Assembly: GCA_005222975.1 (NCBI GenBank)
Contig: NJBI01000078.1
Location: forward strand, 1 to 13,221
DNA: 13,221 nt
Origin: Promethearchaeota archaeon Loki_b31
GTDB taxonomy: Archaea > Asgardarchaeota > Lokiarchaeia > Sigyniarchaeales > SOKP01
Direction of reading: 5' to 3'
Shown here: positions 32-12,909 of the stretch, piece after piece
Position numbering within the stretch: the first letter of the stretch is position 1
How the letters are laid out: each line of letters starts with the position of its first letter
The notes under the pieces: generated by a model
Databases searched by the model: none
Seen by the model: only the letters and a program-made list of their open reading frames with translations
Told to the model about the DNA's origin: nothing
Translations under genes and position numbers: made by a program

Positions 32-1135
32 TTAATATTTTGAAGTGGTTTTTGATTTGATTTTATATTTTGGAATCTCTTTTATTTTTCTTAACTCTTT
101 TTCAAAATCTCGCTTTTCTCTAAGAAATCTCTCTTTATCACTTTTTAATTTTTCTCTTTCTCTTCTAATTGCCTGCTTTTCATTCTGCATCATCGATTTT
201 TCTTTTTCCAATTGTTTAGACTCATTTTTTAATTTTTTAAGCTTATTCTCTAAATTACGAATTTTATGTTCTAAAGAATAATAAGTATCTTCTGCTTTAG
301 GAACTTTTCTATCTAATTCCTTTAATCTTGCTTCTTGCCCTTTTTTCTTTCTTTCTAATTCTCTTATATTACGATCTACTTTCTCTTTATACTTGTTCAA
401 TCCTTCTTTTTTTTTTTCAACTTCACGAGATTGAAGATTTAACTCTTTTTTTTTATATCGAACTTTTTCTTTTTCATCTTTTAATTTTCTTTTCTCATCC
501 TCGATTCGATTTTTTTCATCTATTTTTTCTCTTCTCAAACTATTGATTTCTTTGGTTAGATTATCTCTTTCTCTCGTTAAATTCTTAATTTCATTTCTCA
601 AATCCATTAATGCGTTTTCCAACTTTTCATTAGTTCTTTCTAACGCATTTTCTCTCCGTTCCATACCGGGTATTTTAGTTTTAATTTCCTTAATTCTATC
701 TTTTGCTCTTTCTTTTTCTTTTTCTAAATATTTTTTCTCATTCTTTATCTCATCTTTTAATCCATGTAGTTTCTCTTGATATCGTTCTAAGTTAGCATTT
801 TTTTGATCTAATTCCCTTTCTCTTAAAGCTATATTATCTCTACTTTGCTTTATTTCATTTCTCATAGCATCTAATTCATTTTTTAATTTTTCACGTTTAT
901 TTTGTAGGTCTCTCACTTGAAGTTCTTTTTCTTTTCTTTTCTTTTCTAAATCTTCAATATTTTCGTGGTATCCTTCAATTTTTTTAATAACCTGTTCCCA
1001 TTCATTTTTCTCTTTGTTCAATTTAGCTGTTTCTTCCTTAATTTTTTTGAGTAATTTCGCATCTGGAATAACATCTAATTGCTCTTCAGGTGTTTTTTCT
1101 CGAATTTGGTATTTAGGAATGGGTTTATCATTCAT
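32..1135 (-). CDS. Long coiled-coil protein (367 aa), function unknown
   Basis: ATG-started ORF, almost entirely E/K/R/L/N heptad-like helix. Prolines only near the termini and at P156/P279. No Walker A motif or hinge, so not an SMC. Confidence 0.85.
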   Translation of the reverse strand: MNDKPIPKYQIREKTPEEQLDVIPDAKLLKKIKEETAKLNKEKNEWEQVIKKIEGYHENIEDLEKKRKEKELQVRDLQNKREKLKNELDAMRNEIKQSRDNIALRERELDQKNANLERYQEKLHGLKDEIKNEKKYLEKEKERAKDRIKEIKTKIPGMERRENALERTNEKLENALMDLRNEIKNLTRERDNLTKEINSLRREKIDEKNRIEDEKRKLKDEKEKVRYKKKELNLQSREVEKKKEGLNKYKEKVDRNIRELERKKKGQEARLKELDRKVPKAEDTYYSLEHKIRNLENKLKKLKNESKQLEKEKSMMQNEKQAIRREREKLKSDKERFLREKRDFEKELRKIKEIPKYKIKSKTTSKY

Positions 1136-1317: not shown

Positions 1318-1707
1318 ATGGATTTTGAGGAAGATTTTAACGAGGAATTTGACGAGGAATTTGACGAAGACCTAGATGAAGAATTAGATGAGCCTTCTAC
1401 AAAGTCCCCCACGGAAGATTTTACAGTTAAAACTCCAGATCAAAAAATCTCACATGAAGGAAAAAAGATTTCAGTGTATTTTCTATCAACCATAGGACCT
1501 GGTGAGAAAAAACAAAAATTACTGGTCTATACTGGAAATAAAGTAGGAGATATTAAAGAAACTGTAGCAAATTTGTTTGCTTTAGATCCTGCTGACTTTC
1601 ATTTATCTTCGGGGGGAGTCACTATGGATGAAATTTCGATGTTAAGTGATTATAATTTGTCTGATGGAGATGATATATTACTAATTCCAGCTAGCGTTGC
1701 TGGTTGA
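1318..1707 (+). CDS. Ubiquitin-like protein (Ubl-1) with acidic N-terminal tail, C-terminus ...LIPASVAG-stop
   Basis: The last ~82 aa follow the ubiquitin pattern (VGDIKETV~IENVKAKI; FHLSSGGVTMDE~QRLIFAGKQLED; LSDYNL~LSDYNI). ATG at 1318 is preferred over the GTG at 1309 because GGTG (1306-1309) lies 8 nt upstream and the paralogue starts similarly (MDF vs MSF). Confidence 0.85.
   Translation: MDFEEDFNEEFDEEFDEDLDEELDEPSTKSPTEDFTVKTPDQKISHEGKKISVYFLSTIGPGEKKQKLLVYTGNKVGDIKETVANLFALDPADFHLSSGGVTMDEISMLSDYNLSDGDDILLIPASVAG
1324..1392 (+). repeat. In-frame 12-bp tandem repeat (~6 degenerate copies) encoding (F/L)-D/E/N-E-E/D units
   Basis: TTTGAGGAAGAT TTTAACGAGGAA TTTGACGAGGAA TTTGACGAAGAC CTAGATGAAGAA TTAGATGAG. 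Exact core (ACGAGGAATTTG)x2 plus ACGA at 1340-1367. Confidence 0.9.
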
Positions 1708-1759
1708 ATAGATTGGAAAGATATAGACAATTTAATAATATTATTTTCTTTTTTCACTT

Positions 1760-2554
1760 CTATTTTTTTTTTTTTCTTGATGGAATTAGCGCAATTTCGT
1801 TATCATCGTCTATAGCATAATCTTCTATTAGAAGAGTTTCTTTCAATAAAATCCCCCCAGATGATAATAGAAAATCTTCTAGATTATAATCAAATAATAT
1901 TCCAACTTTTTCTTTAATGATACTTACTAATTCAGACGGATCAATAATGAGAATCTTAGTTTTCTCACCTGATTCGACTAATGACCTTACATAAACACGT
2001 ATTTTCTCATCCATCCCAATAGTATGCAATGGTGGGTTGTATATCACCTGTTCCTCAGTTAGGCTCTTGGTTTCTAACATATCTTCAATTAACTGTTTTC
2101 TCTCACTATCATCAAAATACAACATCTCTCTGATAAAAAAGATTTTATCCATTTTTGATAATCCTAAAAGATCAATTTTAGCTATTTGCTCTTTACTAAA
2201 AATAGTAAAAATATAATCATCCATCGATTCTATTTCTTCAAATGATTCTATTGCATTCGCATAATTATCTATTAAAGGCATTGCATCAAAGTAATCCTCG
2301 AGTAGAGCACTAGTTTTTTTCTTAACTGATTTTTGTTTAGGAAAAGGTTTTTTACCTTTCATCTTTACAATATGGGTACTACTAGATTGAACAACGGTGT
2401 ATATCGTGCCTGTGGATAGCACAGCAACACTACCAATTGTTAGAAAGATATATACTGGAACATTTTCTACTTGTAAAAATATAAGAATCAAATAGGTAAA
2501 TACAATCCCTACATAAAGAGTTATGAGACTTAATATTCTATAATTCTTTCTCAT
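1760..2554 (-). CDS. Membrane protein with two N-terminal TM helices and a C-terminal Ubl domain lacking the terminal Gly
   Basis: Two hydrophobic segments (ILSLITLYVGIVFTYLILIFL; VYIFLTIGSVAVLSTGTIYTVV). The last 81 aa align with Ubl-1/Ubl-2 (GEKTK, IKE, FLLSSGG, DY, LIP) and end SRKKKK. ATG at 2554 preferred; the ORF track starts at TTG 2599. Confidence 0.8.
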   Translation of the reverse strand: MRKNYRILSLITLYVGIVFTYLILIFLQVENVPVYIFLTIGSVAVLSTGTIYTVVQSSSTHIVKMKGKKPFPKQKSVKKKTSALLEDYFDAMPLIDNYANAIESFEEIESMDDYIFTIFSKEQIAKIDLLGLSKMDKIFFIREMLYFDDSERKQLIEDMLETKSLTEEQVIYNPPLHTIGMDEKIRVYVRSLVESGEKTKILIIDPSELVSIIKEKVGILFDYNLEDFLLSSGGILLKETLLIEDYAIDDDNEIALIPSRKKKK

Positions 2555-2638
2555 GATTTTTATGATAAATTCTATTCTAATTTCTAATATATAATTCAAA
2601 ATATAAATCCCATTGGAATAAGTTTGAAATTTTGATGC

Positions 2639-3310
2639 TCACCCACCTAAAATTGATGCTCTTATCTTATAGTATTTCTCTGTATTGATTTTAAAAAAAA
2701 CCTTTTTATTTTCTTTTTCGATTGTTATTAAATCCAGATTTTTTAATATTTCAAGATACTTTTTTATAGTATTGTAATTCTTTTTTAATCCAGTTGCGAT
2801 TTCAGTACTCTTTAATGTTTTATTTTCTTTAATCATAAAATCAATTATTTCTTGAACGATATCTCTTTTTAAATAAAAAAATAACATATCATATTCTGGA
2901 TTTGAATCATATTCAAAGATTATTTTTTGATTATCAATTTTTTTTGATCTAGTAAATCTAAATTTTTCTAAACAGGATAAATGCCATAGTGCTTGATTGC
3001 TTCCAATGTTAATGGCTCTCATTATTTCATTAATATTTGATGGATTCTTCTTTATAAAATTATAAATTTCATTTCTTATGGGATGTTCAATAATATTGTT
3101 TTTCATTAATTTTGTTCCAGGAATTAAAATTCTTTTTTTAATTAGATTTTTAATTATAAGTTCAATACTATTTTTATTTAGATAAGGGTTAGATTTTACT
3201 CTATTATTGATAAATACAACAATATCTTCTATTGAAAAGAAAGGTTTCTTTTTTAAATATTCCCTTATTAAATCACAAACAATAGATTGAAGGTTATCCG
3301 GAGAGCTCAT
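2639..3310 (-). CDS. Winged helix-turn-helix transcriptional regulator with tandem ArsR-like wHTH domains
   Basis: RNEIYNFIKKNP..INEIMRAI..G..QALWHLSCLEK and a second HTH, STEIATGLKKNYNTIKKYLEILKNLDLI. This matches the archaeal double-HTH regulator pattern. Confidence 0.8.
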   Translation of the reverse strand: MSSPDNLQSIVCDLIREYLKKKPFFSIEDIVVFINNRVKSNPYLNKNSIELIIKNLIKKRILIPGTKLMKNNIIEHPIRNEIYNFIKKNPSNINEIMRAINIGSNQALWHLSCLEKFRFTRSKKIDNQKIIFEYDSNPEYDMLFFYLKRDIVQEIIDFMIKENKTLKSTEIATGLKKNYNTIKKYLEILKNLDLITIEKENKKVFFKINTEKYYKIRASILGG

Positions 3311-3503
3311 AAGCTAAAATTTTTATTATGTTAAATGGTCTGAATTTATTAATCAAATCTTCTTTCTAAACAGTATTCTCACCAATATATATTAATAAAT
3401 CGTCATTCAATTTATAAATATATGTTCTTAGGCTCTACTTAATATATTATTTCGTTCACTTTTTAAAATTAATAAAACTTCAAAATCATTCCAATGCGTT
3501 TTA

Positions 3504-3530
3504 TAATAAATAGATTTTATCTATTTATTA
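3504..3530. promoter_or_regulatory. Perfect 12-bp inverted repeat (TAATAAATAGAT-ttt-ATCTATTTATTA), candidate operator
   Basis: Lies in the divergent intergenic region between the wHTH gene and the Ubl-2/E1 operon, and overlaps a TATA-like TTTATAA at 3500-3506. The palindrome is observed; the function is inferred. Confidence 0.5.
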
Positions 3531-3575
3531 AATTCTAAAAAAAAATAAATCTAAAAAATAGATAAAGTGATTTGA

Positions 3576-3908
3576 ATGAGTTTTGACAACGATTTTGATG
3601 AGGAATTAGAACCAGTTAAATCTAAAACCCCATCAAGTAAAACACCCTCAACAGGCAGAAAGTTGACTTTATATTTCATGTCAACTATTGGTCCTGGTGA
3701 AAAGAAGGAAAAATTAACTGTGAATGACGGTAATAATGTAAGTGACATTAAACAAACATTAGGAAATTTATATGGACTTGATCCTGAAGAATTTCACCTC
3801 TCATCCGGAGGAGTTACCATGGATGAGGGTAATCAATTAAAAGATTATAATGTTAGTGATGGCGACGACATTCTCTTGATCCCAGCGAGTACTGCTGGAT
3901 ACTTTTAA
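3576..3908 (+). CDS. Ubiquitin-like protein precursor (Ubl-2), C-terminus ...LIPASTAG-YF
   Basis: 58/82 residues identical to the Ubl-1 domain by manual alignment. Immediately upstream of E1-E2-JAMM-RING. Confidence 0.9.
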   Translation: MSFDNDFDEELEPVKSKTPSSKTPSTGRKLTLYFMSTIGPGEKKEKLTVNDGNNVSDIKQTLGNLYGLDPEEFHLSSGGVTMDEGNQLKDYNVSDGDDILLIPASTAGYF

Positions 3909-3934
3909 ATATTTCTTTTCATAAAGTTTAATAT

Positions 3935-3968
3935 AAGGGCATTAAGCCCTTCAATTTTTTTATTTTTT
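3935..3968 (+). terminator. Putative hairpin plus T-tract terminator/attenuator between Ubl-2 and E1
   Basis: AAGGGC-attaa-GCCCTT (3935-3951), followed by CAA and T7-A-T6. The GC stem stands out in AT-rich DNA. Confidence 0.45.
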
Positions 3969-3983
3969 CAATTAATATTAATA

Positions 3984-5216
3984 GTGATAATATTGGATAA
4001 GGAATCAGATTTTTTTGCTAAAGGAATGACAGCGGAAGAGAGAAATTTATATGATCGCCAATTTCGTTTGGAAGGATGGTCTCAGAATTTGGTAAAAGAC
4101 TCAAGAGTGTTAATTGTAGGCATTGGTGGGTTAGGTTGCGAAATTGCTAAAAACCTAGCCATGTTAGGTGTAGGCCATTTAGATCTTGTTGATTTAGACA
4201 TTATTGAGCATTCCAATTTGAATCGCCAAATTCTTTTTGTTGATGCAAAGTTAGGAGAACCAAAAGCTATTGTAGCGGCTAATAAGCTAATCAAGATTAA
4301 CCCTAATATTACTGTAAAAGGGTATCATACATCCTTAGAAAGGCTAGATCCTGCTTTATATCGTGCGGCAGATGTTGTTATTGGGGGTCTTGATTCAATG
4401 AATGCCCGTTTGAACCTAAATGCGCAATGTATACGATTTAGAAAACCACTAGTGGATGGAGGTGTAAATGGTTATCATGGACATATGTATTCAATCTTTC
4501 CGTATCGGAATGCTTGTTACGAATGTAATCCATTACCAGTAGCTGAAAATGATGAAATGGCAGCCTGTACAGTGGTAGGTATCCCCCGAAAACGGATTCA
4601 TTGTGTTTTTAAAGGAGATATGGCCTTTAAAGAAAAGTTTGATAGAGATCCGTACCCAAAAAATATAAAGGATATTGAATTTATCCAAAAAGGTGCAAAT
4701 AAATTAGTGAATAAGCATAATTTCCTACCTGAATATACTTCTGATGATATCGTTAAAATTATTGATCGTCATGATCCTGGGATCATTACAATTAATGCTG
4801 TTATTTCTGCTTTAGAATCACATGAAGTTGTGAAAATCTTGCATTGGAAAAGAGGTCATAAGAGTTTAGGACGACCCATTTCAAGTTATGTTATATTTAA
4901 TGGAATGACAATGAAACTGTATCATATTGAAAAGAAGAGAAATCCGGAATGTTCTCAATGTGGTAAAAACGTAAGGCGTGTTGCTATAAAAATGAAAGCT
5001 CAATCACCCTGTATGAACATAATTAGAACATTGCAAAAAAATGGATTTGAATTGGAACCTGAATTTGAACCAGTTGTTACCTTACAGGATTTCAATGACA
5101 TCATGGTTTTAGATTTAGAGCAAAATGTAATCGAAAATGGATTAAGAAACTACGAATTTCTGACCGTTGTGGGGTTAAAGGGTGGAGAAATTTATGTTAC
5201 TTTAAAATTAAAATAA
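3984..5216 (+). CDS. E1 ubiquitin-like activating enzyme (ThiF/MoeB adenylation domain, catalytic-Cys region, probable C-terminal ubiquitin-fold domain)
   Basis: LYDRQ, GIGGLG, DLDIIEHSNLNRQ, GLDS..AR, two CxxC pairs (CYEC, CSQC). CTVVGIPRKRIHC resembles the UBA3 catalytic motif CTIASMPRLPEHC. Start is uncertain (GTG 3984, TTG 3993 or ATG 4026). Confidence 0.92.
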   Translation: MIILDKESDFFAKGMTAEERNLYDRQFRLEGWSQNLVKDSRVLIVGIGGLGCEIAKNLAMLGVGHLDLVDLDIIEHSNLNRQILFVDAKLGEPKAIVAANKLIKINPNITVKGYHTSLERLDPALYRAADVVIGGLDSMNARLNLNAQCIRFRKPLVDGGVNGYHGHMYSIFPYRNACYECNPLPVAENDEMAACTVVGIPRKRIHCVFKGDMAFKEKFDRDPYPKNIKDIEFIQKGANKLVNKHNFLPEYTSDDIVKIIDRHDPGIITINAVISALESHEVVKILHWKRGHKSLGRPISSYVIFNGMTMKLYHIEKKRNPECSQCGKNVRRVAIKMKAQSPCMNIIRTLQKNGFELEPEFEPVVTLQDFNDIMVLDLEQNVIENGLRNYEFLTVVGLKGGEIYVTLKLK

Positions 5217-5293
5217 AAATTAAATCAAAAATGATTTTTGAGAAAAATCTATTAAAAAAAAAAGTATAAAAGAAAATAAAAAGGGTTGAGAAA

Positions 5294-5821
5294 ATGAGTA
5301 TAAGAACCAGTCGTGTTTCCCGAGATTTTGCGGGATTAAAAAAATTGCTTAAAGAAGGTACTATTATCCAATTAAAACCATTTAATCCGAAAAAAAAGAG
5401 TATTGATCATTTAGCAATCACAATTAAAGGTCCTAAAGGTACAGTTTATGCAGGGGGATTGTTTAAGTTGGAAATGAGATTCCCGGCTCAGTATCCTAAG
5501 CGACCTCCTTTCGTAAGATTGCATACTCCAATTTGGCATCCAAATTTTTGGCCAAAACCAAGTGAATACAAAGGACAGAGAAATATTTGTTTAGCTTTAG
5601 TAGATCCTTCTTTAACGGGTAAAAAAGGGGGATGGAGTCCTTCAAAAACAGCAGTTACTGTTGTTCAAGCAATAATTGCAATGTTAAACACCCGTGGTAA
5701 ATATGTTAATCCCACTGATGTTTTTAATAAGAAAGCTGCAATAGAAATGATGAAAGATCAGAAATTTTTTGAGAAAAAGGTCAAAAATTTAGTAAAGAAA
5801 TACGCAAAAGATAAATGGTGA
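5294..5821 (+). CDS. E2 ubiquitin-conjugating (UBC-fold) enzyme
   Basis: GP.GT.Y.GG.F.L...FP..YP..PP.V....IWHPN, catalytic ICL (C99), WSP. Confidence 0.95.
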   Translation: MSIRTSRVSRDFAGLKKLLKEGTIIQLKPFNPKKKSIDHLAITIKGPKGTVYAGGLFKLEMRFPAQYPKRPPFVRLHTPIWHPNFWPKPSEYKGQRNICLALVDPSLTGKKGGWSPSKTAVTVVQAIIAMLNTRGKYVNPTDVFNKKAAIEMMKDQKFFEKKVKNLVKKYAKDKW

Positions 5822-5828
5822 ATTTATA

Positions 5829-6620
5829 ATGAATATTGATGATAATGCACTCAGAGAGGCAATAAAACAGAAAATTAAGGAAAAAATTAAAAAGGAATTA
5901 CTTGAAGAAGTATATACCGAATTACAACTAGAAGAATTGCAGGAAGAATTAACCACTGAACTTATTAAAGCAAGGCCTTTAGAACATTCAAAAGAAATTA
6001 AAGCCAAACTTGAGCCAATTCCTATGGAACCAATAAAAACTATAGCTAAAAATGATAAAGTTGAAGTATCTTTGACTATAAAATCTATCCTTAAGATCGC
6101 TAGCCATTCATTAAAATATGCACATTCTAAAATGCGAAGAGAGAATTGGGTTGAAGTAATAGGGTTGCTTGCAGGAAAATACGATAATAGAAAAGGAATT
6201 CTTCATGTTGAAGATGCGTATCCGATGGGGCATGGTACAGCAGTATATGCTGAAATTAAAGATTATAAAAATTATGTTAGAGCCTACAAAGAGATTAAAA
6301 AAGATAATCTGGTTATTTGTGGATGGTATCATTCTCATCCTTCTTATGGATGTTTTATGTCTCGAGAAGACTTAGGAACTCAAGCAAGATATCAAAAATT
6401 ATGGGATAAAGCTATTGCGCTTGTTATTGATCCATATCAGATTAACGGGAAATCTTTAGGTTTTGAAATTTATCGTGCTAATTTTAAAACAAAAAAATGG
6501 TTTTCAATTCCATTTGATATTAAGGGGTATTTAGATGTAAGAATGTTACCAGAAATTTTAGAATTTATGAATCCTATTATTGAAGGAAAACCAGTTTATT
6601 TAGAATATGATGAAGAATAA
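5829..6620 (+). CDS. JAMM/MPN+ metalloprotease (Rpn11/CSN5-like) with N-terminal coiled-coil extension
   Basis: EVIGLLAG and GWYHSHPSYGCFMSREDLGTQ give the full E...HxH-x7-S-x2-D motif; also ALVIDP. GGTG lies 8 nt upstream. Confidence 0.93.
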   Translation: MNIDDNALREAIKQKIKEKIKKELLEEVYTELQLEELQEELTTELIKARPLEHSKEIKAKLEPIPMEPIKTIAKNDKVEVSLTIKSILKIASHSLKYAHSKMRRENWVEVIGLLAGKYDNRKGILHVEDAYPMGHGTAVYAEIKDYKNYVRAYKEIKKDNLVICGWYHSHPSYGCFMSREDLGTQARYQKLWDKAIALVIDPYQINGKSLGFEIYRANFKTKKWFSIPFDIKGYLDVRMLPEILEFMNPIIEGKPVYLEYDEE

Positions 6621-6649
6621 TGAATAGTTTTTAAGGTGAAAATTAAACT

Positions 6650-7765
6650 ATGGTAAAAAAAAAAGTGTTAAGGATAATAGCTATTATTTTTCCAATAATT
6701 GGCTTAATTCATGGTTTAATCTCATATTCTTCAACTATTTTTTTTACATGGTTATTAATCGGATTATGGATAATATTTACAATGAAGATTTTTGAAAATA
6801 TCAAGCGCCACCGTGAGTTTAATTCACCACACAATACTGCATTTTTTGTGATTCTCCCATTATTTATCGGGATTTTTTACTCCATATGGGGTTCTTTTAC
6901 TGGTCTATTGGGAGAGAGTCTTATCGGTGGCGTATATTTTAGTCTTTGGAGTCTAATTTTTGCTTTTCCATTTATAATGTATGGTTTATATTCTTTATAT
7001 CGTTGTTTTAAGAAATATAATGTAATCTATTTTGGAAAAAAATCAGTAAAAGCAAGAATGTTGGGATATATTCTATCATTCTCAGTTCTTATTCTTATTA
7101 TTGCCTATTGGATAACTTTTTATAATTTTACTCTATTAGACTTAAATCTCCTATTACTTTTCATAGCTATAGTTTTAATATTAATTGTTTTTGGATTTAC
7201 TAGTACTGGTTCATCAATACCAACATTAACTCGGGATTACATTGCTGAACGTACTAGAAGGATCAATAATTTGACCACACCTTCAACCCAGAGACAAAGA
7301 GTACACACAACACGTACAACTAATACATCTCCATCAACTAGAACAACTACACGTACAACAAGATCTAGAACCCAATCGTCAAGAACAACTCCTACATCAC
7401 ATAGACAAACGGCAAGGACTAGAACAACAAATACTACACGTACTACTCGTGTTAAACCAACTTCAAAAGTTCGTGATCTAAATAAATATAAACCAAGAGC
7501 ATCATATCTTACAGTAGATGATTTTAAATGTATCTTTTGTTTTAATTTACCAAAACTTCCTGGAGACAGAGGTAGAGGAATAGTTGTATGTCCAAATTGC
7601 AGATATCCCGCACATGCTGATGAATTTAAAGATTGGATGCGAACTTCAAACCTCTGCTCACGTTGTAGTGCTGTTATACCATCAGGCTTTAGGCGTAATC
7701 CTAGAATTGTATCTGTAAAAAATTATTTAATTATCTATAGACATTTTTTGAAGAAGAAAAGATAG
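6650..7765 (+). CDS. Multi-pass membrane protein (~6 TM) with Thr/Arg-rich linker and C-terminal RING-like zinc finger; putative E3 ligase
   Basis: Six hydrophobic segments in aa ~6-184. C294xxC297...C314xxC317-x4-H322-x2-E325-x3-W329...C336xxC339. Last gene of the Ubl-E1-E2-JAMM run, with GGTGA upstream. Confidence 0.75.
   Translation: MVKKKVLRIIAIIFPIIGLIHGLISYSSTIFFTWLLIGLWIIFTMKIFENIKRHREFNSPHNTAFFVILPLFIGIFYSIWGSFTGLLGESLIGGVYFSLWSLIFAFPFIMYGLYSLYRCFKKYNVIYFGKKSVKARMLGYILSFSVLILIIAYWITFYNFTLLDLNLLLLFIAIVLILIVFGFTSTGSSIPTLTRDYIAERTRRINNLTTPSTQRQRVHTTRTTNTSPSTRTTTRTTRSRTQSSRTTPTSHRQTARTRTTNTTRTTRVKPTSKVRDLNKYKPRASYLTVDDFKCIFCFNLPKLPGDRGRGIVVCPNCRYPAHADEFKDWMRTSNLCSRCSAVIPSGFRRNPRIVSVKNYLIIYRHFLKKKR
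7274..7465 (+). repeat. Low-complexity Thr/Arg/Ser coding tract with degenerate repeats
   Basis: ACACGTAC at 7310, 7349 and 7436; ACTAGAACAAC at 7337 and 7418. Encodes repeated TRTT. Confidence 0.7.
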
Positions 7766-7779
7766 ACAAATAAAAATTA

Positions 7780-8736
7780 TTACGACATTCTTATAATTTT
7801 TCTCAACTCACCCACACTAGTTTTTAACTCAGAAAAAACGTTATGTGGATGAATAGATTCAAAGCTTTCAATTTTAAAAGTAATTTTGAAATCATTTTCT
7901 AAATTGGGAAAATCTCTTAAAATAAAGTTTTTTGCCATTTCTCTTACTACATCTTCAGAAAACAGCGGTTTTAAATGAGCAATTCTGACAAGTTTGGCTT
8001 CTTCAGGTCTTTTCAGAACAGACTGTATTTTTCCACTCATCGATTCTTCAATAATATCAATGATATCTAACACATCTATCCTATTGTTATTTAAATCTTT
8101 TATTTGAACTATTATAGTCCCAATTGAACGTTGATTATGAGAGCTAAAAGGTAGGATATTAAGAAGAGTTTTAACCACATCATCAGAAAGGTTAAGATCT
8201 TGCCTATTTTTAATAATTTCCTCAGCATATTCTTGGCTCATTTCCTTAGCACAGGGACAAACCGTCATACCAACAGCACTGGCTCCAATGTAATAACTAA
8301 AATCGACTTTTTCTTGTTCTTTCTTCTTTGCCTTTACAAATGAGCTAATTTCATATGCTTTCTGGATGGTTCTCTGTTGTTCGTCTTTACCTTGTACAAT
8401 TATTTTTCCTTCTAATTTTACATGAATCTTTTCGGTATACGGGTGCCGTTCTAACAATTTTCTAGCAATCCTATCTCCAACTAATTCAACCGATGGAGTG
8501 GGTTTAAAAATTACTTCATTTATTATTTCTTCAATAGTTTCTGAGGTTCGCGACATATGTATGCCACGCTGTTGTGCTGGCAAAGAGATTAAGGCAGATA
8601 TTTTTGGGTAAAAAGAAAACCGTTTATTCTCATGAATAATCTCAACTTTCTTTTCTACTCCCACGATCCCAACTTTATCGATTGGAATATCAACTATCGA
8701 ACCAGAGCCTTGTAAATCTTTCTTAAACTGATGAAT
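7780..8736 (-). CDS. mptA: GTP cyclohydrolase MptA (archaeal member of the FolE2/GCYH-IB family)
   Basis: RGIHMSR, GMTVCPCA, HNQRS, LKRPEE, P.F.EDVVR, ESIHPHN. The conserved N-terminal DLQ...IPIDKVGI lies in frame upstream of the tracked GTG at 8664, so the start was extended provisionally to ATT at 8736. Confidence 0.85.
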   Translation of the reverse strand: MHQFKKDLQGSGSIVDIPIDKVGIVGVEKKVEIIHENKRFSFYPKISALISLPAQQRGIHMSRTSETIEEIINEVIFKPTPSVELVGDRIARKLLERHPYTEKIHVKLEGKIIVQGKDEQQRTIQKAYEISSFVKAKKKEQEKVDFSYYIGASAVGMTVCPCAKEMSQEYAEEIIKNRQDLNLSDDVVKTLLNILPFSSHNQRSIGTIIVQIKDLNNNRIDVLDIIDIIEESMSGKIQSVLKRPEEAKLVRIAHLKPLFSEDVVREMAKNFILRDFPNLENDFKITFKIESFESIHPHNVFSELKTSVGELRKIIRMS

Positions 8737-8855
8737 AAATCAACACCAATTTTTTTGCTCGTTATTTATATGATGTACCAATTTTTATAATTTTTATAAT
8801 ATATTTTCTATTATATTATTTCTTGAAATAGGAATAAATAAAAATTGAATTTAAT

Positions 8856-10028
8856 ATGCCTAAAACTGCGATATATAGTAAATATGGGCTAATTGGAGAC
8901 GATTTAGAGCTAAAAAAAAATATTTCAATAGAAGTAGATAAAGACGGAAAGATTATTACAATTTCTTGCGAAAATATTACGAATAATATTGATATCTCGA
9001 GGAAAGGACGAAGTACTTTATTAGTTCCAGGACTAATTAATTCCCATATTCATATTGGCGATAGTTTTGCGAAAGAGGAAGGGTTTAATAAAGATTTAAT
9101 CGATGTTGTCGCCCCTCCAAATGGATTAAAGCATAAATTGTTAAGAACAATCTCAAACGAAATAAAAATTGAAGGGATAAAAAAAGCAGTTTTAGAAATG
9201 CTAGCAAATGGTATAACATTCTTTGTGGACTTCCGAGAAAACGGGTTAAAAGGTGTAGATCTTTTAAAAGAAACTTTAAAAAATTCTCCTATTAATAAAC
9301 TCATTTTAGGAAGGGATAATAATTTAGTTGATGTGGAAACTGTATTTAAAAATGCTGATGGCTTAGGATTTGCTAGTTATAAGCATCTTTCTCCTAAAAA
9401 CAAAGAAAAATTAAGTAGTTTAAAAAAAGAATATTTAAAAAAAATTATAGCGTGCCACGATGCTGAACTCTCGAGAGACGAGCCACTTTTTAACGAAATA
9501 ATAAACGATGATTTAATCGATGTAATTATACATGGTACTCATTATACAAGAGAAGATTTAGAGAGAATAAAGGGTAGAAATATTTCTATAGTTTTATGTC
9601 CTCGATGTAACGGTTATTTTGGAGTTGGATTTCCACCAATAAACGAAATTAATAGTTTAAAAATTCCTATAAGTTTAGGGACTGATAATGTAATGGTAAA
9701 TACGATTGATTTGTTCGAAGAAATGCGTTACCTATATAGAATTTCTCGTGTTTTATCACCTGATAAAAGTAATAATAATCTTTCTTCAAAAGATTTGTTG
9801 AAAATGGTAAGCATTAATGCTGCTAAAAATTTTGGGTTAGAAAAAGAATTTGGGTCAATTTCAGAGGGAAAATTTGCTGATTTTTTTTTGCTAAATTTAT
9901 CTGACCCGAACTATTATTCATATAAGATTGATCACAAAAGTATTTATCCTATTATTGTCCAAAGATCAAAATCTGAAAATATCAGAAAAACATATATTAA
10001 AGGCGAGGTAGTATTTGAAAGGAAATAA
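8856..10028 (+). CDS. Metal-dependent amidohydrolase (SsnA/cytosine-deaminase-like TIM barrel)
   Basis: PGLINSHIHIGD (HxH), HDAE, IIHGT, CPRCN, LGTDN, GSISEGKFAD. Confidence 0.9.
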   Translation: MPKTAIYSKYGLIGDDLELKKNISIEVDKDGKIITISCENITNNIDISRKGRSTLLVPGLINSHIHIGDSFAKEEGFNKDLIDVVAPPNGLKHKLLRTISNEIKIEGIKKAVLEMLANGITFFVDFRENGLKGVDLLKETLKNSPINKLILGRDNNLVDVETVFKNADGLGFASYKHLSPKNKEKLSSLKKEYLKKIIACHDAELSRDEPLFNEIINDDLIDVIIHGTHYTREDLERIKGRNISIVLCPRCNGYFGVGFPPINEINSLKIPISLGTDNVMVNTIDLFEEMRYLYRISRVLSPDKSNNNLSSKDLLKMVSINAAKNFGLEKEFGSISEGKFADFFLLNLSDPNYYSYKIDHKSIYPIIVQRSKSENIRKTYIKGEVVFERK

Positions 10029-10683
10029 GCATCCTTACGTAATTTTGAGCGCGGCTATGACAATTGACGGTAAAATCGCTTCTAAGATAGGAGACCCAGA
10101 CATTTCTGACGAAGAAGATTGGAAAGCCGTACATAAACTAAGAACAGAGGTAGATGCAATTATGGTTGGTAAAGGGACGATTTTAAAAGATAATCCAAAG
10201 CTTCATATTAAATATTACGATCATAACGGATATTTTCGAATTGTGTTAGATAGTACTCTTTCAATACCAATTGATTCAAATGTGATAAAATATAAACCAG
10301 AAGTTTACCCCACGATCATATGTATAACTGAAAATGTTCCTTTGGAGAAAATAAAAGATTTCGAATTAAAAAACATTAAGATTATAAAATCAGGTAAAGG
10401 GAGCAGAGTTGATGTGGTTAAACTAATGCCAATTTTATATCAAAATGGTATAAAAAAGATTCTACTAGAGGGAGGTGGCAATTTGAATTGGAGTTTTATT
10501 AAAGATAATTTAGTAGACGAAATAAGGTTAACAATTGCCCCTTGGATCGTTGGCGGTAAAGATGCTATAACCCTAGTAGAGGGAGCGGGTTTCTCAAAAA
10601 TGCTTGAAAGCCCTAAATTTATCTTATCTGATGTGGATCATAGAAATAATTACGTAATTCTAAAATATAAAAAAGGAAAATGA
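10015..10683 (+). CDS. arfC: 2,5-diamino-6-(ribosylamino)-4(3H)-pyrimidinone 5'-phosphate reductase (stand-alone RibD_C)
   Basis: AAMTIDGKIA, VHKLR...DAIMVG.GT...DNP.L, LLEGGGNLNWS, VDEI..TIAP.IVGG. No deaminase domain. TTG start with GAGGT upstream; overlaps the preceding gene. Confidence 0.88.
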   Translation: MKGNKHPYVILSAAMTIDGKIASKIGDPDISDEEDWKAVHKLRTEVDAIMVGKGTILKDNPKLHIKYYDHNGYFRIVLDSTLSIPIDSNVIKYKPEVYPTIICITENVPLEKIKDFELKNIKIIKSGKGSRVDVVKLMPILYQNGIKKILLEGGGNLNWSFIKDNLVDEIRLTIAPWIVGGKDAITLVEGAGFSKMLESPKFILSDVDHRNNYVILKYKKGK

Positions 10684-11792
10684 CGGAAGATATAAAAAAA
10701 GTCAAAGAATTAAAATCTTTATCAATCAGAAAGTTAAAAGAAAAAGTTAATGAAATAAAAAATGAGTTAGATAAAGAAGAGCAAAAAATTATAACATATT
10801 CTAAGAATTTCACCCTTTCCCTTTCTAATTATTGTCAAAATCAATGCGGATATTGTTTTTATAATCATAGGATCGCTAAAGAAACAGGGGAAAAAAATGT
10901 TGTGTTAATTGAAGATGAAAAAATCGATTTGATAACTCAAAATGCGGCGCAATATGGATGCAAGGAAGCTTTATTAATGTCAGGTGAATTTCCAGATAGT
11001 TTTCAAATAGTTCAGAAAGAGTTAGAAAAAAGGAATTTTGGCGATTTCTTACAATTTGTTAAGAATTTAAGCAAAAATCTATTAAACATGAATTTTCTAC
11101 CTCATACCAACATTGGCTTGCTTACATTTGAGCAATTAAAAAGTTTAAAGGATTATAACGCTAGTATGGGTTTAATGTTAGAGAGTACTTGCAAAAGTCT
11201 TTTTAAAAGCGGTGGAGTTCATGTAAACTCGCCTGGTAAAATTCCCGAAAACCGAATCGAACACATTGAAAATGCGGGAAAGTTAAAAATTCCCTTCACT
11301 ACTGGTTTATTATTAGGAATTGGAGAGAGTTTTGAAGATAGGATAAAAGATCTGTTTTTAATTAAGGAAATCAATCTTCAATATGGTCATATACAAGAGG
11401 TTATCATACAAAACTTTATAGAGAAAAAGGGTATACGATATAATCCAAGAACCCCCATAACTATTGAAGAAACCCTCAAAACTGCTGGAATCGCAAAATT
11501 AATATTTGAAAATGAGATTGCTATTCAAGTACCTCCCAATTTAATTCAAAATTACGAGACAGAAGCCATAGAGATGGGTATTGATGATTTTGGAGGAATT
11601 TCCCCTTTTACCTTGGATTATATCAACCCGGAGCATACTTGGCCTAAAATAGATTATTTAAAAAAGATTTGTGGAAAAAAAGGGTATAAACTGGAAATGA
11701 GATTACCAATTTATAATAAATTTATCAATAAAAAGGGATTCTGCCCCAAAAATATTAAAAAAACGATAGATAATATTAATCAAAATGTCTGA
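10680..11792 (+). CDS. cofG: FO synthase subunit 1 (7,8-didemethyl-8-hydroxy-5-deazariboflavin synthase), radical SAM
   Basis: ITYSKN, CQNQCGYC, LPHTN.G, NASMGLMLE, SPGK.P..R, IPFTTGLL.GIGE, GHIQEVIIQNF, QVPPNL, D.GGISP.T.D.INPE..WP. ATGA overlap with arfC. Confidence 0.95.
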   Translation: MTEDIKKVKELKSLSIRKLKEKVNEIKNELDKEEQKIITYSKNFTLSLSNYCQNQCGYCFYNHRIAKETGEKNVVLIEDEKIDLITQNAAQYGCKEALLMSGEFPDSFQIVQKELEKRNFGDFLQFVKNLSKNLLNMNFLPHTNIGLLTFEQLKSLKDYNASMGLMLESTCKSLFKSGGVHVNSPGKIPENRIEHIENAGKLKIPFTTGLLLGIGESFEDRIKDLFLIKEINLQYGHIQEVIIQNFIEKKGIRYNPRTPITIEETLKTAGIAKLIFENEIAIQVPPNLIQNYETEAIEMGIDDFGGISPFTLDYINPEHTWPKIDYLKKICGKKGYKLEMRLPIYNKFINKKGFCPKNIKKTIDNINQNV

Positions 11793-12909
11793 AATATATA
11801 ATTACATCAAACCAGATATTAAAAAAATTCTCAAAAAAGCGGAAGAATCGGAAGAAATCAGTCGAGAAGAAGCTCTTAAACTACTAAAAGTTACAGGGAA
11901 AGAATTTTTTGCTTTACAACAAATAGCTGATCAGATTTGTTTTGAGAAGAAAAATAATCTTGTAACATTTATTATAAATCGAAATATAAATTTTACAAAT
12001 ATTTGCTATCAGAATTGTAAATTTTGCTCTTTTAGTGTTTCAAATAAGAATAAAGAAAGTTTTTTACAAACTCATGAAGAAATTAGAAAAAAAGTTTTGG
12101 ACGCTAAAACTGCTGGTTGTACAGAGGTTTGCATCCAGGGTGGAATAAATCCCGAACTAGATTTTGACTATTACCTAAATATTTTGAAGAATGTAAAAGA
12201 TGTCGATGCTAACATGCATACGCACGCTTTTTCACCTCAAGAAGTATTTTATATGTCAAAATTATATGGAAATTCTATTGAAAATACATTAAAAGAATTA
12301 AAGAAAGCGGGATTAGATTCAATGCCCGGCACTGCCGCTGAAATTTTAGTTGATGATGTTAGGAAAATCATATGCCCCAATAAATTATCAACATCTCAAT
12401 GGATTAATGTGATAAGTACAGCTCATAAATTAAGTATCCCTACTACGTCAACTATGATGTACGGACATATCGAAGATTTACGAGACAGAATCAAACACCT
12501 TGAGGTGTTAAGGGAGATTCAAAAAGAGAACTCAGGTTTTACTGAATTTGTCGCTTTACCCTTTGTTAAGGAAAAACCAATGCTATCGACCCTAACAGAT
12601 TTCCCTTTAAAACCAAGTTTTGGAATGGCAGATTTGAAACTCTTCTGCGTAGCAAGAATATTTTTTAACAATTACATTGATAATATTCAATGTTCATGGG
12701 TTAAATTGGGTCCAAAATTTGCTCAAGTATCTCTTAATTATGGAGTAAACGATTTTTCTGGGACACTAATGGAAGAAAATATTTCAAAAAGTGCAGGTGC
12801 GGAATTTGGAGAGTACTTATCTCCAGAGGAAATAATTGAAATTATTAAAGCTGCAGGAAAACGCCCAGCACAGAGAGATACAATATATAAAATCTTAAAA
12901 TATTACTAA
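11785..12909 (+). CDS. cofH: FO synthase subunit 2 (5-amino-6-(D-ribitylamino)uracil-L-tyrosine 4-hydroxyphenyl transferase), radical SAM
   Basis: NRNINFTNIC...C.FC, TEVCIQGG, HAFSP.E, SMPGTAAEIL.D.VR, STMMYGH, GFTEFV.LPF, NIQ.SWVKLG, GTLMEENISKSAGA. Adjacent to cofG. Confidence 0.95.
   Translation: MSEIYNYIKPDIKKILKKAEESEEISREEALKLLKVTGKEFFALQQIADQICFEKKNNLVTFIINRNINFTNICYQNCKFCSFSVSNKNKESFLQTHEEIRKKVLDAKTAGCTEVCIQGGINPELDFDYYLNILKNVKDVDANMHTHAFSPQEVFYMSKLYGNSIENTLKELKKAGLDSMPGTAAEILVDDVRKIICPNKLSTSQWINVISTAHKLSIPTTSTMMYGHIEDLRDRIKHLEVLREIQKENSGFTEFVALPFVKEKPMLSTLTDFPLKPSFGMADLKLFCVARIFFNNYIDNIQCSWVKLGPKFAQVSLNYGVNDFSGTLMEENISKSAGAEFGEYLSPEEIIEIIKAAGKRPAQRDTIYKILKYY

What the first reader, a model, noticed from the sequence alone, without database searches (positions are those of the whole stretch)
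1678..3908. Two modifier paralogues ending in Ala-Gly: one born mature, one needing JAMM processing
Seen: Ubl-1 ends IPASVAG-stop (1678-1707) and Ubl-2 ends IPASTAG-YF-stop (~3873-3908). The domains are 58/82 identical and both keep AG, so this is unlikely to be a sequencing error. Known: Ub, SUMO, NEDD8, SAMP and ThiS end in GG, whereas UFM1 (VG) and ATG8 (FG) use a single Gly. The IP-x4-G spacing matches UFM1 (IPRDRVG-SC) and MoaD/SAMP, while the core looks ubiquitin-like. Inference: a distinct single-Gly modifier class, with Ubl-2 gated by proteolysis and Ubl-1 not.
Basis: partly seen in the sequence, partly recalled or inferred. Interest (0 to 1): 0.82.

Follow-up and report, generated by a model that had tools for sequence, protein, structure and literature searches.

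The report
Asgard ubiquitin-like tags ending Ala-Gly
Two sister genes in a Loki-type Asgard archaeon encode ubiquitin-like protein tags that end in Ala-Gly instead of ubiquitin's Gly-Gly, a feature fixed across a large archaeal family, but the two-residue tail on one copy is an evolutionarily unstable propeptide, not a conserved switch.

Summary
Ubl-1 ends IPASVAG-stop, Ubl-2 ends IPASTAG-YF-stop, and the cores are exactly 58/82 identical.

Ala-Gly is not an error. All 164 family proteins I collected end in AG, none in GG. Ala107 and Gly108 are invariant in an alignment of 54 members reaching down to 38% identity. The family gave strong hits in 9 of 30 GTDB families in a 301-genome Asgard sample.

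By sequence, fold and enzyme set it belongs to the ubiquitin family, not UFM1. The terminal Gly aligns with ubiquitin G76, so Ala sits at the G75 position. The genes lie with a UBA2/UBA3-like E1, the genome's only E2, a JAMM protease and a membrane RING-like protein.

The "one born mature, one gated" reading holds for this genome but is not conserved. In 20 congeneric genomes, tails come and go in both paralogues. JAMM stays intact where both are born mature, and here it is encoded downstream of Ubl-2 in the same gene array.

Best reading: an Ala-Gly ubiquitin-type conjugation system with two paralogous tags, a labile propeptide, and JAMM acting as both trimmer and deconjugase. Nothing is biochemically shown. 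This scan noted the same Ala-Gly operon in at least 8 other genomes. A 2026 paper's structure-detected Asgard "Ufm1 homologues" may be this family; I could not verify that.

The parts
1318..1707 (+). Ubl-1: 129-aa ubiquitin-family modifier with a roughly 47-aa acidic F/L-D/E N-terminal arm. It ends ...IPASVAG-stop, so it is born mature. It stands alone as a gene; an alternative GTG start lies at 1309.
   Evidence: the ATG at 1318 matches the orthologues' MDFEEDF start; Pfam ubiquitin E 0.008; monophyletic Ubl-1 group
1699..1707 (+). Ala-Gly codons (gct ggt) followed directly by TGA
1760..2599 (-). Membrane protein with a C-terminal third Ubl domain that ends IPSRKKKK. It has no terminal Gly and so is not conjugatable. 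It is conserved at this position across the genus.
2639..3310 (-). Winged-helix (ArsR/TrmB-like) protein, divergent from Ubl-2 and conserved at this position in related genomes; candidate regulator
3576..3908 (+). Ubl-2: 110-aa ubiquitin-family modifier and first gene of the array. It ends ...IPASTAG-YF-stop, so it is a precursor form.
   Evidence: Pfam ubiquitin 28.9 bits against a cut-off of 25.4; AF2 beta-grasp model with core pLDDT about 90
3894..3908 (+). Ala107-Gly108 codons (3894-3899), Tyr-Phe tail (3900-3905) and TAA stop
3935..3961 (+). GC-rich hairpin plus T-run between Ubl-2 and E1; a possible partial terminator that would give more modifier transcript than enzyme transcript
   Evidence: consensus scan only; 2 sites found against 0.8 expected
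3984..5216 (+). E1: ThiF-fold adenylation domain with GxGxxG at 46, CxxC at 178 and 323, a candidate catalytic Cys195 in AACT, and a C-terminal domain of about 85 aa
5294..5821 (+). E2: UQ_con family with HPN at 82-84 and Cys99; the only UQ_con gene found in the genome
5829..6620 (+). JAMM/MPN+ metalloprotease (Rpn11-like) with Glu109 and HSHPSYGCFMSRED at 168-181, all invariant in 24 homologues
   Evidence: complex model with Ubl-2
6650..7765 (+). Multi-pass membrane protein with a Thr/Arg-rich linker and a C-terminal RING/U-box-like zinc domain; candidate E3. Invariant ligands are C-x2-C-x16-C-x2-C-x4-H-x13-C-x2-C.
   Evidence: AF2 pLDDT 91; every listed Foldseek hit that could be identified is a RING or U-box domain or a complex containing one, at E 4e-3 to 8e-2

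Best explanation
Ubl-1 and Ubl-2 are two paralogous members of a large Asgard subfamily of the ubiquitin family whose conjugation end is an invariant Ala-Gly. The Ala occupies ubiquitin's G75 position and the Gly occupies G76. Inferred mechanism: the adjacent UBA2/UBA3-like E1 adenylates the free carboxylate of the terminal Gly and forms a thioester on its Cys. It passes the tag to the single E2, and the membrane-embedded RING-like protein directs it to lysines, probably at the membrane. The JAMM protease cuts after Ala-Gly. That removes short C-terminal propeptides such as YF on Ubl-2, and the linkers in tandem poly-Ubl precursors seen elsewhere, and it also removes the tag from substrates. 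The tail is a short, evolutionarily labile propeptide of the kind seen on eukaryotic ubiquitin, SUMO and NEDD8 precursors. It blocks E1 until trimmed, but it is not a conserved distinction between the two paralogues. The conserved differences between them are gene position (Ubl-1 free-standing, Ubl-2 heading the enzyme array), the length of the acidic N-terminal arm, and evolutionary rate (Ubl-2 changes more slowly). Shown here: sequence, conservation, fold, gene context and the comparative pattern of tails. Inferred: activation, conjugation, trimming and deconjugation.
For: The AG end is fixed. 120/120 close homologues end IPASTAG plus 0-4 residues, and about 40 distant cluster representatives all end xAG plus 0-6. 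G79, P103, A107 and G108 are invariant in 54 sequences, and 164/164 are AG.

The variable sequence starts exactly after that Gly, and tandem 2x and 3x Ubl proteins carry AG at every junction. This marks AG as the processing and conjugation point.

Ubiquitin-family membership: all 54 members match PF00240. The family profile finds ubiquitin best in the PDB, and L-L-I-P-A-S-T-A-G aligns to H-L-V-L-R-L-R-G-G. The AF2 model is a beta-grasp. Its best Foldseek match is Caldiarchaeum ubiquitin bound to its Rpn11 homologue (6fno_D). VIA-align gives Z 13-14.4 to ISG15, ubiquitin and NEDD8, with model residue 108 aligned to Ub 76.

Enzymes: the E1 is nearest to UBA2/UBA3/UBA1; the E2 has HPN and Cys; JAMM has HxHx7SxxD; the last gene has a RING/U-box-like fold.

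The genome (92% complete) holds one E2 and only these three ubiquitin-family hits.

The array Ubl(AG) x1-2, E1, E2, JAMM, TM-RING is conserved in three other GTDB families.

JAMM-Ubl-2 complex model: score 0.85 against a best control of 0.56. That mark was reached by 58 of 80 solved complexes and 2 of 110 mismatched pairs. The runs agree in at least 98% of contacts and the partner pLDDT is at least 90. Ubl-2 residues 100-110 touch JAMM E109, H168, H170 and S178-D181. A like complex (6fnn/6fno) is solved, so the pass may reflect likeness only.

Precedent: Caldiarchaeum pro-ubiquitin (GG plus 9 aa) is cut by Rpn11 and is refractory to E1 until cut (PMC5654768). Helarchaeial pro-ubiquitin is GG plus SPKN (bioRxiv 10.1101/2023.07.25.550441).

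Tail lability: 20 paired congeners show all tail combinations except (Ubl-1 tailed, Ubl-2 mature), scattered over both paralogue clades. JAMM is intact where both are mature.
Against: Ubl-1 alone is below the Pfam ubiquitin cut-off (16.3 against 25.4 bits). Ubl-2 orthologues carry tails more often (13/20) than Ubl-1 orthologues (5/20), the combination 'Ubl-1 tailed, Ubl-2 mature' was never seen, and an aromatic tail (YF, YI, YV) recurs. Some selection on the tail of the array-linked copy therefore cannot be excluded. I found no E1 feature that explains tolerance of Ala at the G75 position. The complex model may pass from memory of solved Rpn11-ubiquitin complexes.
Confidence: 0.7

Rival explanations
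1. One reading: the two paralogues are functionally split by their C-termini. Ubl-1 is constitutively activatable, while Ubl-2 is held as an inactive precursor and released by regulated JAMM cleavage, so the tail acts as a timing gate.
For: In this genome the sequences fit this literally. 8 of 20 congeners share the (mature, tailed) combination and the reverse combination was never seen. YF-type tails recur in the Ubl-2 clade. Ubl-1 has its own transcription unit away from JAMM. Uncleaved pro-ubiquitin is refractory to E1 in Caldiarchaeum (PMC5654768).
Against: 7 of 20 congeners have both paralogues born mature and 5 of 20 have both tailed. Tail states are scattered across both clades. Single-copy orthologues in other families carry arbitrary tails of 0-2 residues (M, K, R, C, I, MP). 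JAMM lies in the same gene array as Ubl-2, so substrate and protease are probably made together. JAMM is retained intact where no tail exists.
Confidence: 0.17
2. The family is an Asgard UFM1-type system, or the ancestor of UFM1. It would be a single-Gly modifier handled like UFM1, whose mature end is Val-Gly and which carries a 2-residue tail.
For: There is a superficial likeness between IP-x4-G plus a 2-residue tail and UFM1. Koestlbacher et al. (PMC12962969) report structure-detected 'Ufm1 homologues' in nine Asgard clades, with some multi-region and partial hits. That resembles the tandem and fused forms seen here.
Against: 0 of 54 members match Pfam Ufm1 while 54 of 54 match Pfam ubiquitin. 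No Ufm1 hit over the cut-off was found in 301 Asgard genomes, and three marginal hits that I checked lie outside AG-family loci. The E1 matches UBA2/UBA3 at 1e-37 against UBA5 at 6e-15. The E2 is UQ_con with HPN, not UFC1, and the protease is a JAMM metalloprotease, not a UFSP cysteine protease. The tail register is identical to ubiquitin's.
Confidence: 0.05
3. The AG proteins are not conjugated to proteins at all. They would serve as non-covalent adaptors or as sulfur carriers like MoaD/ThiS/SAMP.
For: No conjugates have been observed. A third, membrane-anchored paralogue lacks any terminal Gly and must act non-covalently. There are weak ThiS Pfam hits in 9 of 54 members.
Against: An E2 with a catalytic Cys, a RING-like protein and a JAMM sit in one conserved array. 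The terminal Gly is invariant with variable residues after it. The genome has five separate ThiS/MoaD-type genes and four other ThiF genes for sulfur chemistry.
Confidence: 0.04

Closest known systems
Candidatus Caldiarchaeum subterraneum ubiquitin operon (Ub, E1-like, E2-like, small RING finger protein, Rpn11 homologue; PMC5654768, PMC6043591)
   Same: A prokaryotic operon with a beta-grasp modifier, an E1 with a catalytic Cys, a UQ_con-type E2, a RING-type protein and a JAMM protease. The modifier is made as a precursor whose C-terminal extension must be removed before E1 can use it. Its ubiquitin in the Rpn11 complex is the best Foldseek match of the Ubl-2 model.
   Different: The Caldiarchaeum modifier ends Gly-Gly plus 9 residues; here the end is an invariant Ala-Gly plus 0-6 residues. 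There are two paralogous modifiers plus a membrane-anchored non-conjugatable third. The RING-like domain is fused to a multi-pass membrane protein instead of being a small soluble protein. JAMM lies inside the array.
Gly-Gly-type Asgard ubiquitin systems (for example the Helarchaeial operon with pro-ubiquitin GG-SPKN, bioRxiv 10.1101/2023.07.25.550441; GG-type genes found here in other Asgard families)
   Same: Same phylum, same kind of E1/E2 neighbourhood, and short variable propeptides after the conjugation Gly.
   Different: They match the AG-family profile only weakly (E 1e-7 to 1e-11, against below 1e-30 for AG members). They end ...TEGG, TKGG or IEGG. Their E1s are only 30-33% identical to this one. 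No GG-type gene was found in this genome.
Eukaryotic ubiquitin, NEDD8 and ISG15 precursors
   Same: Same fold (Z 13-14.4, rmsd 1.0-1.5 A), the same register of the C-terminal tail, short species-variable residues after the last Gly (poly-ubiquitin ends RLRGG plus Q, L, N, F or H), and tandem poly-modifier precursors.
   Different: About 20% identity. Ala replaces Gly at position 75. There is a long acidic N-terminal arm with SKTP motifs. Processing is by a JAMM rather than by cysteine DUBs.
UFM1 (mature end Val-Gly, precursor tail Ser-Cys; from general knowledge)
   Same: A single terminal Gly preceded by a small aliphatic residue, with a two-residue propeptide.
   Different: No sequence-family match, and the E1, E2 and protease types all differ.

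Membership tests
Ubiquitin family (Pfam PF00240; beta-grasp modifiers of E1-E2-E3 cascades) | Sequence match to the ubiquitin profile | tested here: met
   Ubl-2 scores 28.9 bits against a cut-off of 25.4. Ubl-1 alone scores 16.3 bits, below the cut-off. All 54 aligned family members match, best E 1.7e-12. The family profile finds ubiquitin first in the PDB.
Ubiquitin family (Pfam PF00240; beta-grasp modifiers of E1-E2-E3 cascades) | Beta-grasp fold with the C-terminal tail in ubiquitin's register | tested here: met
   The AF2 core has pLDDT about 90. Foldseek and VIA-align top hits are archaeal ubiquitin, ubiquitin, ISG15 and NEDD8. Model residue 108 aligns to Ub residue 76.
Ubiquitin family (Pfam PF00240; beta-grasp modifiers of E1-E2-E3 cascades) | C-terminal Gly-Gly | tested here: not met
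   Ala-Gly in both paralogues and in 164 of 164 family proteins
Ubiquitin family (Pfam PF00240; beta-grasp modifiers of E1-E2-E3 cascades) | Covalent attachment to substrate lysines through E1 and E2 thioesters | not testable with these tools
   Only gene context: E1 with Cys, E2 with HPN and Cys, RING-like domain, JAMM
Caldiarchaeum-type archaeal ubiquitin operon | Clustered modifier, E1, E2, RING protein and Rpn11-like JAMM | tested here: met
   Genes at 3576-7765. The same order is found in three other GTDB families.
Caldiarchaeum-type archaeal ubiquitin operon | JAMM removes the C-terminal propeptide of the modifier | tested here: inconclusive
   Complex model scores 0.85 against a best control of 0.56, with the tail lying in the metal site. 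It is in silico only, and a like complex is already solved.
UFM1 family and UFMylation system | Match to the Ufm1 profile (PF03671) | tested here: not met
   No hit for Ubl-1 or Ubl-2 at E up to 0.1, for 0 of 54 members at E up to 10, or in the genome at E up to 1
UFM1 family and UFMylation system | UBA5-type E1, UFC1-type E2 and UFSP cysteine protease | tested here: not met
   The E1 matches UBA2/UBA3/UBA1 at 1e-37 to 1e-34 against UBA5 at 6e-15. The E2 is UQ_con with HPN and the protease is a JAMM.
UFM1 family and UFMylation system | UFM1-like fold closer than to ubiquitin | tested here: inconclusive
   UFM1 is not among the 50 rows shown by Foldseek or VIA-align. A family that is not listed is not excluded.
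MoaD/ThiS/SAMP sulfur-carrier type modifiers | ThiS-family profile match, and an E1-only pathway without an E2 | tested here: not met
   The ThiS score is 12.5 bits against a cut-off of 22.5. An E2 is encoded in the array. Five separate ThiS-type genes lie elsewhere in the genome.

The most novel reading that the evidence does not exclude
The Ala-Gly end defines an orthogonal ubiquitin-type pathway in Asgard archaea. Its E1 and JAMM would have co-evolved to require Ala at the G75 position, keeping it insulated from Gly-Gly ubiquitin where both exist. Within it, the genus-level duplication has produced two differently deployed tags: a free-standing, ready-to-use Ubl-1, and an array-linked Ubl-2 whose aromatic dipeptide tail delays activation until JAMM is present.
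Probability: 0.15. Interest if true: 0.72.

Novelty: new variant of a known kind. Interest (0 to 1): 0.55.

Why it matters
Gly75-Gly76 is treated as a near-universal requirement for E1 activation and DUB recognition in the ubiquitin/NEDD8/SUMO group. A large, strictly conserved Ala-Gly branch with canonical-type E1, E2, RING and JAMM partners, in the closest prokaryotic relatives of eukaryotes, is a natural experiment on that rule. It also bears on how many parallel tagging pathways predate eukaryotes.

There is a practical consequence. Tryptic digestion would leave a 19-residue DYNVSDGDDILLIPASTAG remnant on lysine, not the di-Gly remnant. Standard K-epsilon-GG proteomics would therefore miss this modification in Asgard cultures and enrichments.

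The comparative data also warn against reading regulation into a short C-terminal tail: it is gained and lost freely between sister species.

Tried and rejected
1. UFM1 reading. The Pfam Ufm1 model hits none of the 54 family members and nothing in this genome. No hit passed the cut-off in 301 Asgard genomes. Three of the eight marginal hits (E 0.002-0.009) were checked and hold no AG-family ORF. UFM1 structures are not among the 50 rows shown by Foldseek or VIA-align.

2. E1s of AG-type arrays in other families read DAGTAAY and DGGTATY, so the Val is not tied to AG. My script failed to extract the two GG-type E1s, so no AG-versus-GG specificity positions could be called.

4. Literature. Five successful full-text searches and six papers read gave no description of an Ala-Gly Asgard modifier. 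The supplement of PMC12962969 is not held, so I could not check whether its 'Ufm1 homologues' are this family.

5. A GG-type Asgard ubiquitin used as a query against this genome found only Ubl-2, at E 0.17.

6. The sigma-70 promoter scan was no better than shuffles (22 found against 20.2 expected) and is not meaningful for an archaeon.
Full report
**What is there.**
The window is a 13.2-kb piece of a low-GC (about 30%) Promethearchaeota (Loki-type Asgard) genome. Two plus-strand ORFs encode ubiquitin-like proteins.
- Ubl-1 (1318-1707; an upstream GTG lies at 1309) ends LLIPASVAG followed directly by TGA.
- Ubl-2 (3576-3908) ends LLIPASTAG-Tyr-Phe-TAA.
BLASTP gives E 7e-48.

Between them, on the minus strand, lie two genes:
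- a membrane protein whose C-terminal domain is a third, divergent Ubl ending IPSRKKKK, with no terminal Gly;
- a winged-helix protein.

Downstream of Ubl-2, with gaps of 75, 77, 7 and 29 nt, follow four genes:
- a ThiF-family E1;
- a UQ_con E2 with HPN and Cys99;
- a JAMM protease with the motif HSHPSYGCFMSRED;
- a multi-pass membrane protein with a C-terminal zinc domain.

That zinc domain folds with pLDDT 91. Every listed Foldseek hit that could be identified is a RING or U-box domain, or a complex containing one, at modest E-values of 4e-3 to 8e-2.

**Is Ala-Gly real and conserved?**
Yes, overwhelmingly.
- The 120 closest database homologues (76-97% identical) all end IPASTAG, or a close variant, followed by 0-4 variable residues.
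- An exhaustive HMMER search of 1.8 billion cluster representatives returned about 40 single-domain relatives, down to about 40% identity. All end xAG plus 0-6 residues. The next-best hits are eukaryotic poly-ubiquitins ending RLRGG.
- In an alignment of 54 diverse members the only invariant positions are G79, P103, A107 and G108.
- A regex that would have accepted Gly at the penultimate position found AG in 164 of 164 proteins. 53 of them have no tail and 111 have tails of 1-6 residues.
- The family also occurs as tandem 2x and 3x Ubl precursors with AG at every junction. It also occurs as the C-terminal domain of HerA-like ATPase and CDC48_N-VWA proteins.
- Sequence conservation stops exactly at the Gly, and everything after it varies. 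That is the signature of a processing and conjugation site.

**Distribution.**
In 301 genomes sampled across the phylum, 130 had a match at E ≤ 1e-6. Strong matches (mostly E below 1e-30) came from 9 of the 30 GTDB families sampled. Twenty sampled members from seven of those families all end IP[AV]STAG plus 0-2 residues.

The weak hits (E 1e-7 to 1e-11) in other families are ordinary Gly-Gly ubiquitins, for example ...TRTEGG-SVKY...TKGG-L and ...IEGG. Two of these that I examined sit next to more divergent E1 genes, one of them also with an E2. The gene order Ubl(AG) x1-2, E1, E2, JAMM, TM-RING is kept in three other families.

In this genome (92% complete) I found only the three ubiquitin-family genes of this window, one E2 and no Gly-Gly ubiquitin. 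Five ThiF and five ThiS/MoaD-type genes lie elsewhere.

**What family is it?**
It is ubiquitin-type, not UFM1-type.
- All 54 members match Pfam ubiquitin and none matches Pfam Ufm1.
- The family profile aligns LLIPASTAG to ubiquitin's HLVLRLRGG without gaps. Ala107 is therefore the counterpart of G75 and Gly108 of G76. The 'IP-x4-G spacing' is simply ubiquitin's own.
- The AF2 model is a confident beta-grasp.
- Its best Foldseek match is Caldiarchaeum ubiquitin in complex with its Rpn11 homologue.
- VIA-align gives Z 13-14.4 to ISG15, ubiquitin and NEDD8, with residue 108 on Ub residue 76.
- The E1 matches UBA2, UBA3 and UBA1 at E 1e-37 to 1e-34, and UBA5 only at 6e-15.

One caveat. Koestlbacher et al. 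(Nat Microbiol 2026, PMC12962969) report structure-detected 'Ufm1 homologues' in nine Asgard clades and mention partial and multi-region hits. That resembles the fusions and tandem forms seen here. No Asgard genome of 301 has a Pfam-Ufm1 hit over the cut-off. Their family may therefore be this one under another name, but I could not check, because the sequences are not held.

**The two paralogues.**
A maximum-likelihood tree of 51 cores puts Ubl-1 and Ubl-2 orthologues each on one side of a branch (support 97/67 and 100/99). The two groups are sisters, and the single-copy genes of other families in the order lie outside them. The duplication is thus about as old as the genus.

The three-Ubl arrangement recurs across the genus: most of the 24 congeners searched have three or more matches, and the full gene layout was confirmed in four of them.

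The conserved differences between the paralogues are:
- position: Ubl-1 stands alone, while Ubl-2 heads the enzyme array;
- the acidic N-terminal arm: about 47 against 26 residues;
- evolutionary rate: Ubl-2 has shorter branches.

**The tail.**
In 20 congeners holding both genes, the tail states (Ubl-1, Ubl-2) are:

| Ubl-1 | Ubl-2 | genomes |
|---|---|---|
| none | tail | 8 |
| none | none | 7 |
| tail | tail | 5 |
| tail | none | 0 |

Ubl-1 tails include KYLL, KINI and KINRNI. Ubl-2 tails include YF, YV, RLI, LN, K and QDKHRFF. The states are scattered across both clades, so there were several gains and losses. Single-copy orthologues in other families carry M, K, R, C, I, MP or nothing.

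In four congeners where both tags are born mature, JAMM sits at the same place with an intact metal motif. Its conserved job therefore cannot be propeptide trimming alone; deconjugation is the obvious one.

In this window JAMM lies three genes downstream of Ubl-2 in the same array. Precursor and protease are therefore probably made together, which fits constitutive maturation better than a regulated gate.

Ubl-2 orthologues are tailed more often (13/20 against 5/20), and an aromatic dipeptide recurs (Tyr is the first tail residue in 53 of 111 tailed proteins). Weak selection on the tail cannot be excluded.

**Does JAMM handle the tail?**
A complex model of JAMM (75-263, with Zn) and Ubl-2 (27-110) scored 0.85 against a best control of 0.56.
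- That mark was reached by 58 of 80 solved complexes and 2 of 110 mismatched pairs.
- The runs agree in at least 98% of contacts and the partner pLDDT is at least 90.
- Ubl-2 residues 100-110 touch JAMM E109, H168, H170 and S178-D181.

Because Rpn11-ubiquitin complexes are solved, the pass may only reflect likeness. The biochemical precedent is direct: Caldiarchaeum pro-ubiquitin (GG plus 9 residues) is cleaved by its Rpn11 homologue and cannot be activated by E1 until then (PMC5654768).

**Verdict.**
- The Ala-Gly end is a fixed trait of a large Asgard branch of the ubiquitin family with a canonical-type enzyme set.
- The UFM1/MoaD analogy is not supported.
- The mature-versus-precursor contrast between the two paralogues is real in this genome but evolutionarily labile. 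It is best read as a dispensable propeptide, not a designed gate.
- No paper I could search describes the Ala-Gly feature.
- This scan had already noted the same operon in at least eight other genomes. In several of them it was said to coexist with a Gly-Gly system; in this genome I found none.

Noticed in passing
window 1760-2599 (-): Membrane-anchored third Ubl paralogue ending IPSRK(K/E)K.., with no terminal Gly. It is conserved between Ubl-1 and the wHTH gene in the four congeners whose gene layout I examined. It cannot be conjugated, so it may be a membrane docking or decoy site for the E1, the JAMM or a receptor.
   Followed up: partly
P0121, P0123, P0138, P0173, P0213, P0130 (database relatives): The AG-type Ubl also occurs as tandem 2x and 3x precursors with AG at each junction. 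It also occurs as the C-terminal domain of HerA-like ATPase, CDC48_N-VWA and a weakly Roadblock-like protein. Whole proteins may therefore be conjugatable through an AG end.
   Followed up: partly
window 3576-3660 and 1318-1460; alignment A1: All family members carry an acidic F/L-D/E arm followed by one or two (K)SKTP motifs before the beta-grasp core. This holds even in distant families and in each unit of the tandem forms. Function unknown.
   Followed up: no
window 3935-3961 (+): GC-rich hairpin (AAGGGC-ATTAA-GCCCTT) followed by a long T-run between Ubl-2 and E1. It is a possible partial terminator that would give excess modifier transcript.
   Followed up: partly
window 32-1135 (-): A 367-aa Lys/Glu-rich coiled-coil protein, divergent from Ubl-1, with only weak coiled-coil Pfam hits. 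Another reader noted IPKY..KT motifs at both ends.
   Followed up: no
G017:C43:52829-64081 (related genome): In one congener Ubl-1 lies about 11 kb upstream of Ubl-2 instead of about 2 kb. A partial Ubl copy (72% identical, query residues 34-83, with an in-frame TGA) lies in between, which points to an insertion or rearrangement within the locus.
   Followed up: no
G016:C25, G014:C220, G024:C39, G015:C285, G002:C145, G023:C149 (related genomes): Extra Ubl-2-like copies (80-83% identical) lie on other contigs of several congeners. They are either a further paralogue or strain mixture in the bins (contamination 4-9%).
   Followed up: no
cluster of P0130: Members of one cluster at 90% identity are labelled Heimdallarchaeota, Thorarchaeota and Promethearchaeota in NCBI. 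The phylum labels of these MAG records are probably unreliable.
   Followed up: no
window 7780-12909: The flanking genes are ordinary cofactor metabolism. They include GTP cyclohydrolase FolE2/MptA-type (Pfam GCHY-1). Three further ORFs were not tested; from the sequence alone they look like an amidohydrolase-like protein, a RibD-C-like reductase, and two radical-SAM ORFs resembling CofG/CofH of F420 synthesis.
   Followed up: no
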